DNA of 64,000 bases from assembly GCA_964016885.1 (NCBI GenBank), contig OZ024741.1:355880001-355944000 (forward strand), given 5' to 3'. Below are positions 29,394-43,345 of the stretch, one piece after another. Numbering within the stretch: the first letter of the stretch is position 1; each line of letters starts with the position of its first letter. This stretch comes from Eledone cirrhosa (lineage: Eukaryota). The notes under the pieces were generated by a model, which was not told where the DNA came from, did not search any database, and saw only the letters and a list, made by a program, of their open reading frames with translations. A program made the position numbers and the translations under genes.

Positions 29394-29472
29394 ATAACTC
29401 CCGATGAGATCGTCCTGTCTTGCATCATAACTGGATGATGGAGCTGGGCCATCGAAATATGTATAGTGATTT
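29394..29472 (+). ncRNA. Degenerate type I hammerhead motif
   Basis: CCGATGA(29401)-GATCGTCC..GGGCCATC-GAAA-TATGTA-TA; weak helix I; AATAAA downstream. Confidence 0.55.
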
Positions 29473-29621
29473 CATGGAATTATAAAGCAAATTTCCCAGT
29501 CTCTTATTAATTAATAATAAATAGATAATTATATATATATATATATATATATATATATATATATATATATATATATATACGATATATTCACAAATGGAAA
29601 CTATATTTATAAAACCATATT

Positions 29622-29686
29622 TATTTCATCATACATATTTCAAGGACACCAAGTTAAATAATGGTGTGCTTTCATTAGATAAAATA
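29622..29686 (-). ncRNA. Hammerhead motif in the inverted pLTR of PLE-A (core mutated)
   Basis: Reverse complement of 39680-39744, with CTAATGA and TG at the cleavage site. Confidence 0.6.
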
Positions 29687-29857
29687 TAATATAGATCAGT
29701 TTTATAAATAAATATTGACATTCCCTTAAAGAATGCGATCATTTCTGTTGGAAGCTCCCGGATAGTGGGGTTATAAATTTAATTATACTATTATGCAAAT
29801 TAGTGTCGGATATTTTAAAATCACAGTAGATTTATATAAGGGTATGGAGAGAGGGAA

Positions 29858-29955
29858 AGAGAAAAAAGAGAAAAAAGAGAAAAAAGAGAAAAAAGAGAAA
29901 AAAGAGAAAAAAGAGAAAAAAGAGAAAAAAGAGAAAAAAGAGAAAAAAGAAAAAA
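29858..29955. repeat. (GAGAAAAAA)n 9-bp tandem repeat at the PLE-A inversion junction
   Basis: Read directly, about 10 units. Confidence 0.9.
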
Positions 29956-31707
29956 GCATAATTTTAACAACTATAATAGAAAACCTTACAATAATTCGGA
30001 AAACAAAAAAAGAAATAGAACTAGGAATATATTATGGTTCGCTCCTCCTTTCTCATTAAATATTAAAACTCCTATTGCTAAACTATTTTTTAAAGCTCTT
30101 GACAAATGCTTCCCTAGAACACATAGATATTACTCAATTTTTAATAGACGTACTATAAAATTAACTTATTCATCCACCAAAAATTTAGCGCAGAATATTA
30201 ATAGAATTAATAATAGAAATTTAAAACCTAACCAAAATACCACTAATAACCCCAGCAATTTCCAATTTGATAAATGTAACTGTAGATATAAATCTAATTG
30301 TCCGTTAAATAACAATTGCTTAGCTAAAAATATAGTATATGATTAGTAATAACTAATTTAAATTCATTTAATTATGTAGGATCTACTTCCACAGATTTTA
30401 AATCTCGTTTTAATAACCATAAAAGCTCTTTTACGCATTTAAACAAAAAAATCTTCAACTTCTCTATCTAGCTTATAATGGGACCTCAAATTAAAGAACG
30501 TTAAATATTCATTACTTTGGAATATTATTTCAAAAGCTACTCCTTTTAATTCCTCTTCAGAAAATTGTGATCTTTGTATAAAGGAAATATTCTTTATATT
30601 AAAAAGCAAAAATTCCCTAAATGTAAGAAGCAATCTATTCAGTTGCTGCAGACATAGATTGAACTCAACGTTTAAATATAAATTTAAAATATAATATATA
30701 ATTAATTCTATTAATATATTGAACCTATCGATAAATCCTTAGATTCCTTCATTTCACTGCTTAAACTCTCAAATATAAAAATTTTTTCATAGAAAATTTT
30801 TATAGATAAACATACCGAAAGGAGAAAATATTTTTTTTGAAAGGCTTCTCCTATTTTTGAAAGTTTCTCTTTCTTTTTCTTTGAAATTTCCCATATAGTT
30901 ATAAAAATAAGTTAAACATACTGAGAGTTAAATATTGTATAACAAATTTAAATTTTATACTGAATTTTTTAGACATATTCTTATTTTAAAATTATATCTT
31001 AAGATATTCTGTAATTTTTTAAAATTATATTTTTTAAAATTATATTGCTTTAAAGTTATATTGCTTATAATTGTAAGAATATATTTCCAAATCGTAATAC
31101 AATTCATTTTTATCTTACTTTTTATATATTATGTACTTCAATTATACTATGTACTGTACATTTCTCTCTCTCTCTCTCTCTCTCTCTCTCTCTCTCTCTC
31201 TCTCTCTCTCTCTCTCTCTCTCTCTCTCTCTGTCTCTCTCTCTCTCTCTCTCTCTCTCTATTTATATATATATATATATATATATATATATATATATATA
31301 TCTTTAGGTTTGTTGGTTCACCACTGGATAGAACTGGTCATTCCGTATAGTCAATCCTGGTGTAATATTGTGAAGAGTACTCAACGCATTGCAGTTCACC
31401 CATGTTCGTTTGTGTAGTTGGTGGTGCGAATACGGAGTTATATATATATATATATATATATATATATATATATATATATATATATATATATATATATATA
31501 TATATATATATGTAGATAAATCTACCAAGTGTTTACGGTAGTGTCCAATCCGTATGAAGAACTCAATGTAATCCGGATATCATGGAAAGAAGAGATGCAA
31601 TGAAAAATCACTTTCGGTGAAAGATAAACGGAATACAGAGTCAAGATAAAATATTAAAAAAATAATGAATAAAACAATGAAACAGTTCCTTATATTAAAC
31701 AAAAAAG

Positions 31708-39744: not shown

Positions 39745-41019
39745 AATATGGTTTTATAAATATAGTTTCCATTTGTTAATATATCGTATTTTTACTCCAA
39801 TAATTTGTTGAGTGCTTTATATCAGTTATAAAAATATTTGCTTGTTGTATCCCAACAATTTAAATAGAACTTCTACATATATATTTATCCTTATCGAGCC
39901 CTCTTTGGATTTTAGTCTTCAAATTTATTATTATTACTATTATTATTATTATTATTATTACTATATATATATATATATATATATATATATATATATATAT
40001 ATATATGTGTGTGTGTGTGCATGTATATATATATATATATATATATATATATGTACATGCACCCCCCCCCCCCACACATATATATATATATTGTGTTAAT
40101 TGACAGTCAATTAACGCAATCAGATATACACACTCATATTTACAGAATATTTCCTTTGCCCCCCAAGAACAATTTTGTTCTGTGAAGAATCACAACTACC
40201 AACACAGCTGCTACTATCATGACTACACACTTCTCTCTCTGTACACAAGAACTCATTCTCCAGTCCCCTTCTGAGCAAGGAAGATGAAAAAAAAACTTAC
40301 TCCAACACTTAATTTTAAATCTTTAATTCTTAGTTTTTAATTCTTATTAATTATTTTTAATTGTAATACTCAACATTTGATAAGATTAGTTTTAATAATA
40401 CATCGAAATTGGTAATACTTTATATACATTATAAAACTCTTTTTTAAAAGAATTGTCCCTCTCATTTTTCAATAATGTCATCTTTTCAATAATGTCACTT
40501 TGACGAATCAAAGAAAGGAAAAAAAGAAAAACAGACTCTAAAATATATTTTCCGAGCTATTTCCAACTTCTCTCTCTCTCTCTCTCTCTCTCTCTCTCTC
40601 TCTTTCTCTCTCTCTCTCTCTGTATATATATATATATATAGAGAGAGAGAGAGAGAGAGAATATTGGTGCAGACATGACTGAATCGTTTAGAATATTTGG
40701 ATGTTCTCTGAATTAGCAAAATAAATTTCATCTAAACTGTAAAATGGTTATGTTGGTTTGACGTGAAAATATATTAGAGCGTTACTGGTACTTTATGTTA
40801 TCGAGCCCGTATAAATGAAAAGAAAAGATGGTGTGTGCACACACATACACGTTTACGAACCCAAAGCTTAGAAATTCAACTGCTTTAGCTAATAAAATTT
40901 GGGAGTTAATAGAATAAAAAAAGGTACGAAATTTCGTGATCTATCCTGGAATTTTCCCATAAGTATCAGCAGGATACAGAAGTGTGTCATATTTATACAC
41001 ATGAAGTCTACAATAATAA

Positions 41020-41207
41020 TTGTTTCTACTTTTTGGCACAAGGCCAGCAATTACCCAGTGCATTACTGGTACTTTATTTTATCGACCCCGTAAGGATGAA
41101 AGGCAAAGTCAACCTCAACGGGATTTGAACTCAGATCGTAAAGGGACGTAACTATGCTGGAAAGCATGGCGTCCGACCCTCTACCGATACTGCCAATCCA
41201 CCACCCT
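41020..41207 (-). mobile_element. tRNA-derived SINE
   Basis: A-box-like TGGCAGTATCGG, B-box GAGTTCAAATCCC, body TTTGCCTTTCATCC..GGGGTCGATAAAATAAAGTACCAGT, (ATT)n tail; further copies at 43727 and 44779. Confidence 0.8.
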
Positions 41208-42332
41208 TTAGTCTACAATAATAATAACTGGCAAAACATTAGTAAACACTAGACAGGAACGAATTTTTAATTGCAGACACAAACAATTAAAAAATATTTT
41301 TTACTATATTCCTGCCTAACAGGAAATTTGATCATACTACTGATTCACTCATTTCACGGTGACTTTATTGTAACTTTATTATGGGTATATCTTTGCTGGC
41401 TGAATCTCGAACTCTTTGAAGTAATGCCGGCTGCATTCTTATCTGTAAAATACCACATAGTTGTCAAGTTGGTAGATGTTCATTGAACAACATAATTGTT
41501 GTTGCTGTTGTAATACTACTACTATTACAACTAATTTTCTGTTGTTGTTTTGAATGGGTACATTTTCAGCCAATAATAGTCCAGATATTTTGTAGGATTG
41601 AATCCACTTGTCATTTCCTATTCCCCTAACACTACCATAAAGCTCCCATCCTTCCCTACTCTTATTTGTATTGATTTATCTACATCAATCTTAGCCTTTC
41701 CTCAGTCTTCCATCTCTTTCCCCTAATCTTCACCCTCTTGGATTCTTCATTGTTCTTCCTCTTTATTTCTTCCTCTACTTATGTTTTTCTGTCTAAAATA
41801 CTATCCTCCAAGTATCTCTCCCTCTCTATTCTTTCATGTGTCTTCCTCTATTTCTTTTCTTTTTCTTTATCACGTTTTGTCTTTTTTGTCTTTTTTGTCT
41901 TTTCCTTTTCTTCTTTTCTTTTCTTATCCTTTTTCTTTTTCCTTCAATTCTAGCTTGCCTTCTATATATCTCTATATTTGAAAATGTTTTTATTCCACTT
42001 TGAAAATTTGTTGCCTACATATGATTTTATAAATAGTTGGGTTCGATTTATTTTGATTGAAATAATCAAATATTAGCGATCTTACCTTGATATGTAACAC
42101 ACACGACGAAACACGTGTCAGTGTTATGTAATAATGCTATTCCCATTTTTCTGGAATGTGATGCTTTAAATAATAATTTTGTAAATCTCACTCACTCTCT
42201 CTCGTTCTCTCTCTCTCTCTCTTGCTCTCTCTCTCTCTCTCTCTCTCTCTCTCTCTCTCTCTCTCTCTCTCTATATATATATATATATATATATATATAT
42301 ATATATATATATATATATATATATATATATAT

Positions 42333-42533
42333 GAACCAGTAAGACCCCGACAGCTGAGCTCAAGCCGTTTCGACGGCTAATTCTGGACTTAGTCCAGAAT
42401 TAGCCGTCGAAACGGCTTGAGCTCAGCTGTCGGGGTCTTACTGGTTCCTATTACCCACTCTACTACCTCAAGTATTGAGTACTTTGGTGCGTTATGGTCC
42501 ACCTGGTTCCTTACCACATTTCCTTCCTTCGTT
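42333..42533 (+). mobile_element. PLE-like terminal fragment with fold-back palindrome
   Basis: 57-bp perfect arms containing the hammerhead 3' half GAAAC..GTC; tail 42460-42533 matches the reverse complement of 29177-29245; (TA)n on both sides. Confidence 0.6.
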
Positions 42534-43090
42534 ATATATATATATATATATATATATATATATATATATATATATATATATACTTTTTCTCTATTATATA
42601 TGTTCTGGCTCGTTAATTTATTAACCTGTCATAGAACCACATTGGCATACGGTTGGATAATACATGTGGTCCCGATGTGCATTTTTTGCACGTAGGAAAA
42701 CATACTTTATTATTATTAATCTCCCCTAAGGTCGAGATAACATTTTGGTCGTTTTAACTGCTGCTATTTCTAGTGACAGGACCTTGACCTTTCCGCTCTT
42801 GCCTTCTATCTTTACACTCGGCGCTAGACAAGATTGTTTCCTTATCATACACTCTCATCCGGGAACAGTTCTTTATGGCGCCAGTTCGTGATTTGAACTC
42901 GGGAATTTTATATTCTCCGAGTGAGAAGAACCCTCTGACGAAAGTCTCCTTCTCAATGGTGTTCCGCATGGATTATCCATTTATTTTGAGACTTGAAACC
43001 GCGCGGTAAGGGTAAATATAGTAAGTACAGTAAACTTGTTAAAATTCATTTTAAAACTTTTTCTCTACCTTGATTATATATATATATATA

Positions 43091-43345
43091 AGCAAAAGGA
43101 ATATTTAATTTGTTGTTAATTCAACAAATATATATGTTTATAACTGATTCGAAGCACTCGACAGATTTTCTGGGGTATAATATCAATGATATTAAATAAA
43201 TGGAAACTATATTTATAAAACCATATTTATTCTATTATATATATTTCAAGGGTACCAAAACTTTGGTACGCTCTCCTCATATAAAATACAAAATTTGTTT
43301 TATAAATATTGACATATCCAGGAAGAAAATCTTAACGGTTCAAGT
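43091..43345 (-). mobile_element. PLE pLTR relic (PLE-A/C family) with hammerhead motif at 43228-43288
   Basis: Minus strand reads TATTTTAT-ATGAGGA-GAGCGTACCAAA..TTTGGTACCCTT-GAAA-TATATA-TA-ATAGAATA, followed by the same tail as at 39740-39860. Confidence 0.7.

What the first reader, a model, noticed from the sequence alone, without database searches (positions are those of the whole stretch)
29394..43288. PLE hammerhead variant with a long helix II and an invariant C-C mismatch at base pair 4
Seen: five divergent motifs all have CUGANGA-like core, helix II, GAAA, palindromic helix III and UH. Their helix II sequences covary, yet each keeps C opposite C at position 4: GATCG/CCATC (29408), TGGCA/TCCCT (35022), CGGCA/TCCCA (38362 and its inverted copy), AAGCA/TCCTT (39695 and the 29.6-kb copy), GAGCG/CCCTT (43.2 kb, minus). 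The half motif at 42.4 kb also has C at that 3' position. Known: PLEs carry minimal type I hammerheads with palindromic helix III, thought to act as dimers, usually with a very short helix II. Inference: a mismatch held while neighbouring pairs covary points to a tertiary contact or protein-binding site, i.e. a distinct hammerhead subtype. I do not know of a description of it.
Basis: partly seen in the sequence, partly recalled or inferred. Interest (0 to 1): 0.8.

Follow-up and report, generated by a model that had tools for sequence, protein, structure and literature searches.

The report
Hydra retroelement hammerhead with C·C mismatch
Over 70,000 copies of a predicted self-cutting RNA motif in this animal's jumping genes keep one C facing another C while the neighbouring pairs change in step, a feature not found in the papers searched, which likely marks the RNA for a protein, perhaps the element's own copying enzyme.

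Summary
The motifs are type I hammerheads in the terminal repeats of Hydra-clade Penelope-like retroelements. Genome-wide, 72,006 of about 81,000 position-blind matches have C·C at helix II step 4, and 378 have C-G. In 58 flank-defined clusters, step 4 pairs in 2, while steps 2, 3 and 5-7 pair in 48-54 with compensatory changes. The mismatch persists in elements whose proteins are only 41-56% identical.

Corrections: it is C·Y, not invariant (a ~24,000-copy family has C·U); step 1 does not covary; long helix II is already known; three of seven window copies have damaged cores; the 42.4-kb half motif belongs to another family.

None of 26 published Hydra hammerhead rows, or 19 marine relatives, has C·C. 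I found no description, but one key paper (Lünse 2017) was unreadable. Earlier scan notes saw Penelope hammerheads in other genomes, not this mismatch.

Best guess (0.4): a protein-read mark near where reverse transcription starts. No RNA partner and no co-varying protein residue was found; cleavage and binding are untested. New variant of a known kind.

The parts
39678..39746 (+). Intact type I hammerhead, subfamily C: core 39688-39694, helix II 39695-39724 with C39698·C39721, GAAA 39725, palindromic helix III AUAUGUAU, predicted cut after A39736
35005..35074 (+). Intact-core hammerhead, subfamily A: helix II 35022-35052 with C35025·C35049, U·U at step 1, predicted cut after A35064
34362..34415 (-).
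38345..38498 (+). Subfamily O hammerhead in the inverted terminal repeat: 115-nt helix II region, C38365·C38473, helix III ACGAUCGU, predicted cut after U38488
31708..31868 (-). Subfamily O hammerhead in the sense 3' terminal repeat: 122-nt helix II region, C31848·C31733
36444..37967 (-). 5'-truncated Hydra-clade RT/endonuclease ORF of subfamily O (two in-frame stops); intact 830-aa frames and 6.65-kb tandem units exist elsewhere in G000
29391..29475 (+). Decayed hammerhead of an older subfamily with a 46-nt helix II region: core CCGAUGA, helix I damaged, C29411·C29450
29620..29688 (-). Decayed inverted copy of subfamily C: core CUAAUGA, G at the cleavage position, C29668·C29645
29960..30752 (+). 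Broken 3' fragment (linker and endonuclease) of a subfamily C ORF next to the inverted repeat
43226..43290 (-). Decayed hammerhead, subfamily D: core AUGAGGA, C43270·C43251

Best explanation
These are type I hammerhead motifs in the terminal repeats of Hydra-clade Penelope-like retroelements, and the unpaired C at helix II step 4 is likely a base-specific mark read by a protein, most plausibly the element's own reverse transcriptase-endonuclease. Shown: the motif, its place in the element, and the retention of the 5' C opposite a non-pairing pyrimidine across deeply diverged subfamilies. Inferred: the ribozyme is slow alone because helix III forms only between two copies; reverse transcription starts about 50 nt past the cut site and must copy an uncut hammerhead; the protein would bind the C·Y site to pick its template and to gate folding or cleavage. 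Cleavage and binding are untested.
For: Selection on the 5' C: 72,006 C·C against 378 C-G genome-wide; 16 of 19 multi-copy clusters C·C, 1 C·U, none paired; carriers' proteins are 41-56% identical between the four deepest lineages. Asymmetry: U·C arises often by CpG decay (9 of 66 copies with G next, 2 of 145 with A next) but is the settled state of no multi-copy family, whereas C·U is fixed in one family; ViennaRNA scores C·C, C·U and U·C alike, so stability alone does not explain it. Copy 3' ends cluster 43-58 nt past the cut, and none of 91 aligned copies starts exactly at it. Precedents: the Anolis PLE hammerhead cleaves only when the element's protein is added, and uncut RNA is the template (PMC11167929); a C-C mismatch in an RNA helix is the template mark for tombusvirus p33 (PMC4083346).
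Against: No protein column is diagnostic for C·Y carriers: 1 column, against 0-4 in all 70 regroupings of 8 proteins. The C·Y label needs at least 2 changes on the protein tree and was one clade in 0% of bootstrap trees; a family without it sits inside the main group (a short fragment). Other abundant hammerhead families in the same genome spread without it. In Anolis the mapped protein-binding region is the first 172 nt of the ORF, not a helix II mismatch.
Confidence: 0.4

Rival explanations
1. The mismatch is a structural hinge or brake. It would split a long helix II into a short core-proximal stem and a distal stem, keep the ribozyme slow, and ease passage of reverse transcriptase through the hairpin.
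For: C-G repair adds 6.4-6.7 kcal/mol and raises pairing of steps 2-3 from about 0.5 to about 1.0 in subfamily A. The 3' hammerhead must stay uncut to be copied. Other long-helix families in this genome have mismatches at other steps. PMC3088659 reports that stabilising stem II lowered activity in one natural hammerhead.
Against: Any 1x1 mismatch should serve, yet place and 5' base are fixed and U·C is not fixed despite its supply. Marine relatives and published Hydra motifs manage with fully paired stems.
Confidence: 0.25
2. The unpaired C is a docking site for an RNA tertiary contact with helix I or with the partner in the dimer, replacing the loop-loop contact of canonical hammerheads.
For: Canonical hammerheads need helix I-helix II contacts for fast cleavage (PMC6155905; PMC3088659), and step 4 lies near where their loop 2 begins. 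The mismatch travels with a 6-nt palindrome in helix III.
Against: No conserved base in helix I or its flanks: no base is invariant at any of 15 positions on either side (top base at most 39 of 58 clusters), and G is at no fixed distance. Complementarity of either helix II strand to its own flanks is barely above that to foreign flanks (5.5 vs 5.0, 4.3 vs 4.3, 5.2 vs 4.6, 3.6 vs 3.8 bp). A backbone contact is not excluded.
Confidence: 0.2
3. The mismatch is an inherited accident: the clusters descend from a few masters and the site has simply not changed.
For: Clusters are related, and decayed families are split into several clusters. Only about four deep protein lineages were sampled. Subfamilies A and O share the same 6-bp helix II base, which may reflect a swapped module.
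Against: Both flanking pairs changed on both sides several times (step 3: U-A, A-U, G-C; step 2: A-U, G-C, C-G) while an unpaired site, which should change faster, kept its 5' C in lineages 41-56% identical in protein.
Confidence: 0.07

Closest known systems
Hammerheads of Hydra-clade Penelope-like elements (Craig et al. 2021, PMC8557442, File S2)
   Same: Same element clade by protein motifs; type I topology, CUGANGA/GAAA core, palindromic helix III, frequent U·U at step 1 of helix II, (TA)n targets; many rows also have C on the 5' side of step 4.
   Different: In all 26 Hydra rows of File S2, including Hydra-1_oBim, stem II is written fully paired and that C faces G. Here it faces C or U, helix II runs on for 5 to about 50 more pairs, and element units are 4.0-6.65 kb rather than under 3 kb.
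Minimal hammerheads of metazoan PLEs (Cervera and de la Peña 2014, PMC4209133)
   Same: Located in pseudo-LTRs, dispersed in thousands of truncated or inverted copies, palindromic helix III, proposed dimer action, helix II up to 7-8 bp.
   Different: Their consensus has one extra base before a conserved G10.1-C11.1 pair and no conserved internal mismatch. None of the rows of Fig. S3 shows C·C; two single rows have another mismatch at pair 4 (C·A sea urchin, U·U Clonorchis), without comment.
Protein-assisted hammerhead of Anolis Poseidon PLE (Frangieh et al. 2024, PMC11167929)
   Same: Hammerhead upstream of the reverse-transcription start, two 3' end classes, uncut RNA as template.
   Different: Different PLE clade; there the ribozyme overlaps the ORF start, here the core starts 237 nt before the ATG; no mismatch determinant reported.
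Tombusvirus internal replication element bound by p33 (review PMC4083346)
   Same: A conserved C-C mismatch in an RNA helix, proposed here to play the same template-marking role.
   Different: Unrelated RNA virus element, not a ribozyme; a functional analogy only.
Short-stem-III hammerheads of PLEs (Lünse, Weinberg, Breaker 2017)
   Same: By title and by the review PMC6765202: PLE-linked, short palindromic stem III, cleave as dimers.
   Different: Could not be read; whether its alignments include this variant is unknown.

Membership tests
Type I hammerhead ribozyme | CUGANGA and GAAA...UH core | tested here: met
   Intact in 4 of 7 window copies and in the young subfamilies with intact ORFs
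Type I hammerhead ribozyme | Three helices around the core, open end in helix I, supported by covariation | tested here: met
   Helix I steps 1-3 pair in 54-56 of 58 clusters; helix II steps 2, 3, 5-7 in 48-54; 126 double-change cells against 41 in shuffles on a hand-picked alignment. Helix III pairing was a search criterion.
Type I hammerhead ribozyme | Conserved R10.1-Y11.1 pair closing helix II | tested here: not met
   Step 1 pairs in 27 of 58 clusters, as chance; natural U·U at this place is known (PMC3088659)
Type I hammerhead ribozyme | Self-cleavage after H17 | not testable with these tools
   No RNA holder listed; needs an in vitro assay
Canonical extended hammerhead (Schistosoma type, Rfam hammerhead families) | Conserved loop 1-loop 2 tertiary bases; match to Rfam models | tested here: not met
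   No conserved partner bases; no Rfam hit at gathering score in the window and no hammerhead among 134 matches to E 10 in 29000-43600
PLE minimal or dimeric hammerhead | Short palindromic helix III, unstable in the monomer | tested here: met
   Helix III pairing probability 0.00-0.01 in 4 monomers folded; the double-hammerhead fold was the predicted dimer for 1 of 4
PLE minimal or dimeric hammerhead | Located in pseudo-LTRs flanking an RT-endonuclease ORF | tested here: met
   Sense copies up- and downstream of intact ORFs, inverted copies at truncated 5' ends, tandem units
Hydra-clade Penelope-like element | DKT motif, RWK-like motif, CxCX5C linker, CxxC and CxH around the endonuclease E and N | tested here: met
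   Read in the L202 ORF: RWR, DKT, CNCRDRSKC, CDLC, CKH against the definition in PMC8557442 section 11. Pfam gave no family for this ORF.
Hydra-clade Penelope-like element | Insertion into (TA)n | tested here: met
   Printed 3' ends at +48 to +75 run into TA repeats; read from the rows shown, not counted over all copies
Hydra-clade Penelope-like element | Generally shorter than 3 kb | tested here: not met
   Tandem spacing 4.0 kb for subfamily A and 6.65 kb for O; the paper gives this as a tendency
Hydra-clade Penelope-like element | Placement with the published Hydra proteins in a tree | not tested
   Reference sequences were seen only cut in the supplement and were not used

The most novel reading that the evidence does not exclude
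A distinct hammerhead subtype in which a fixed C·Y mismatch in helix II is the mark by which a Penelope-like element's reverse transcriptase-endonuclease recognises its own RNA and switches the ribozyme on or off: a retrotransposon counterpart of the tombusvirus C-C template mark, and a defined handle on why Penelope elements keep slow ribozymes.
Probability: 0.3. Interest if true: 0.75.

Novelty: new variant of a known kind. Interest (0 to 1): 0.52.

Why it matters
Why Penelope-like elements keep hammerheads that barely cut in vitro is an open question, and how their protein picks its RNA is known for one element only. A single non-core position under evident selection gives a one-base test, with natural controls in the same genome (C·U family, paired families) and young copies with intact 738- and 830-aa frames to supply the protein. 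It also shows that a family of more than 70,000 copies is invisible to Rfam models and would fail descriptors that demand a paired helix II.

Tried and rejected
Rfam: no hit at gathering score; no hammerhead to E 10. Expression or in vivo cleavage: no RNA holder listed; the contigs laid cannot show ends. Genomic trace of cleavage: none of 91 aligned copies begins exactly at the cut; uninformative, as uncut RNA may be the template. Alternative register with a bulged first base: fits some subfamilies but breaks steps 2-3 in the GGUC, GGAC, GAUC and GCUC types (read). Pseudoknot or switch partner within 120 nt upstream and 70 nt downstream: none above foreign-flank control. Protein residues tracking the mismatch: none. 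Outside this genome: 23 viral and 33 prokaryotic pattern matches, none with helices I and II; no related protein in viral contigs; 0 of 19 distinct hammerheads from 23 of 80 marine metagenome loci have C·C, and the model's best score there was 22.8 bits. A loose C..C pattern with other helix III starts gave fewer matches than its control (827 vs 2,029). I first filed the elements as Neptune-like (notes 2 and 3); the motifs fit Hydra. Pfam and PDB gave nothing for the ORF. The first tree run timed out.
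Full report
Observation. A descriptor that ignores step 4 found five of them and nothing in 10 local shuffles. The other two (29391-29475; 29620-29688 minus) are decayed and were recovered by a covariance model. Three of seven have a changed core base, as expected of old dead copies. 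The window is G000:C2:355880001-355944000 in a 3.0-Gb microsatellite-rich genome. I did not identify the host; the only named close protein is from Argonauta hians, at 39% identity.

Genome-wide count. A pattern blind to helix II (core, 15-45 nt, GAAAUAURUAUA) matches 80,994 places against 177 for its control. With C at both step-4 positions it matches 72,006; with C-G, 378; with another base on the 5' side, 4,260. The spacer ranges differ by one base, so the 89% share is approximate. The first 100 rows read as scattered mutants of the same subfamilies, deletions, or nested core-like words in one loop, not as subfamilies. Older subfamilies with 46-76-nt helix II regions add 3,109 matches (control 227) and show the same C·C. 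A sister family with helix III AUGYRCAU has 24,298 matches; most listed rows have C·U and a minority C·C. The very long subfamily O was not counted.

Subfamily-level test. From own-genome loci I collected 258 distinct motifs with no helix II criterion, dropping 13 central matches from loci chosen on step-4 letters, and clustered them on flanks and helix III only. The group was defined by helix III and helix I: 58 clusters, 213 copies. Step 4 pairs in 2 of 58 (C·C 41, U·C 7, C·U 5, C·A 2, C-G 1, A·C 1, G-C 1). Steps 2, 3, 5, 6 and 7 pair in 54, 51, 48, 49 and 51, each above all 5,000 shuffles; step 1 pairs in 27 against 26.5. Among 19 clusters with two or more copies: 16 C·C, 1 C·U, 1 two-copy tie of U·C and C·C, and 1 C·A that looks like a chance match with no helix II. 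U·C is CpG decay: 9 of 66 copies with G next, 2 of 145 with A next. In the 32 other clusters step 4 pairs in 21 and is C·C in 1. Clusters are kin and old families are over-split, so these p-values overstate independence. Alignment A2 (30 of 55 printed representatives plus 2 window copies, chosen by me, decayed U·C rows left out) gives 126 double-change cells against 41 in shuffles; its 32 of 32 unpaired step-4 cells are not independent evidence.

What carries it. The motifs lie in pseudo-LTRs of elements with one RT-endonuclease ORF: sense copies up- and downstream of the ORF, inverted copies at truncated 5' ends. Subfamily A has many intact frames of about 740 aa with the core 237 nt before the ATG. 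Subfamily O, whose broken ORF is at 36444-37967, has intact 830-aa frames in 6.65-kb tandem units. Pfam names neither ORF. The L202 protein shows RWR, DKT, CxCX5C, CxxC and CxH, the diagnostic set of the Hydra clade in PMC8557442 (section 11). Proteins of the four deepest C·Y lineages (A/C, E, C·U, O) are 41-56% identical, about as far apart as from families without the mismatch. On a 29-row tree the label needs at least two changes and was never one clade in 200 bootstrap trees; O groups apart, and a short fragment without the mismatch falls inside the main group. One row (L184) was labelled by family, its own helix II being deleted. So the mismatch is either old with losses, or the module moved between lineages.

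Outside this genome. Of 80 marine metagenome loci encoding relatives, 23 have a hammerhead; none of 19 distinct motifs has C·C, though several have long, fully paired helix II. In File S2 of PMC8557442 all 26 Hydra rows, including one from Octopus bimaculoides, have paired stem II; many have U·U at step 1 and C-G at step 4. The variant therefore looks derived: the 5' C was kept, its G partner replaced, and the helix extended. How far it reaches among hosts is untested.

The 42.4-kb half motif. It is the 3' half of another family with a mostly U3-A8 core and a 7-bp helix III: 6,039 full matches, control 0, with ORFs 39-45% identical to the C·Y families. In full copies the C at -4 pairs with G across a small asymmetric loop. 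It does not support the finding.

Mechanism. Predicted folds give helices I and II with a 1x1 loop and no helix III in the monomer; repair to C-G adds 6.4-6.7 kcal/mol, and C·C, C·U and U·C score alike. Copy 3' ends cluster 43-58 nt and 133-145 nt or more past the cut, and no copy starts at the cut. Reverse transcription therefore likely starts just downstream and copies an uncut ribozyme, as reported for the Anolis element, whose hammerhead cleaves only with the element's protein (PMC11167929). The fixed place and the one-sided constraint argue for something reading the 5' C. An RNA partner was sought and not found. A protein reader has a precedent in tombusvirus p33 (PMC4083346), but no residue tracks the mismatch. 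I put protein reading at 0.4, hinge or brake at 0.25, tertiary dock at 0.2, accident at 0.07.

Literature seen. PMC4209133: main text parts 1-3 of 4 and supplement parts 1-2 of 3. PMC8557442: passages, section 11, supplement parts 2-3 and searches; figures are not held. PMC11167929: parts 1-2 of 4. bioRxiv 2026.07.22.740005: part 1 of 5 and a term search with no 'mismatch', 'helix II' or 'stem II'; its supplements are closed. Passages only: PMC6765202, PMC6962438, PMC6155905, PMC10085705, PMC3088659, PMC4083346, PMC13725137. Eight searches listed no paper whose title or abstract start describes this variant; 'hammerhead ribozyme' with 'C-C mismatch' gave three papers whose listings concern other RNAs (not opened). 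Lünse et al. 2017 was not held; from recall it surveys very many short-stem-III variants, so its alignments may contain these sequences. Subscription papers and Repbase or Dfam entries were not searched.

Verdict. A real, selected, apparently undescribed variant of a known ribozyme in a known element clade; the mechanism is inferred. Interest 0.52.

Noticed in passing
window 42333-42447; full copies in L371-L382, L416-L423: Perfect inverted duplication from a second hammerhead family with a mostly U3-A8 core, a 7-bp helix III capped by a palindrome (possibly active as a monomer) and a small asymmetric loop in helix II; 6,039 full matches, and many more half copies cut inside helix II.
   Followed up: partly
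   Followed up: partly
first 30 nt after the predicted cut, e.g. window 39737-39766: AAUAAA or AUUAAA follows the cut site in 35 of 53 clusters against 2 of 53 upstream, and copy 3' ends fall 43-58 nt past the cut; polyadenylation may set the template's 3' end.
   Followed up: partly
window 31701-38561: A 5'-truncated subfamily O element with inverted 5' repeat, interrupted between about 33487 and 35202 by other sequence that includes a subfamily A fragment; nested insertion into TA microsatellites.
   Followed up: partly
G000:C6:49529854-49556969 and G000:C7:78452867-78463066: Head-to-tail arrays of intact elements (five O units of 6.65 kb; three A units of 4.0 kb), the arrangement that would put two hammerheads on one transcript.
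   Followed up: partly
L110:6115 and 6936, L013:879, L063: Families whose settled core is CCGAAGA (U4C) with a fully paired 20-nt helix II.
   Followed up: no
window 11000-27300 and 45300-63200: Several LINE-type RT and endonuclease ORFs (e.g. 50819-54025 +, 55475-58210 -, 25653-27284 +), unrelated to the finding.
   Followed up: no
window 48200-48665: Five near-identical tandem copies of a 93-bp unit.
   Followed up: no
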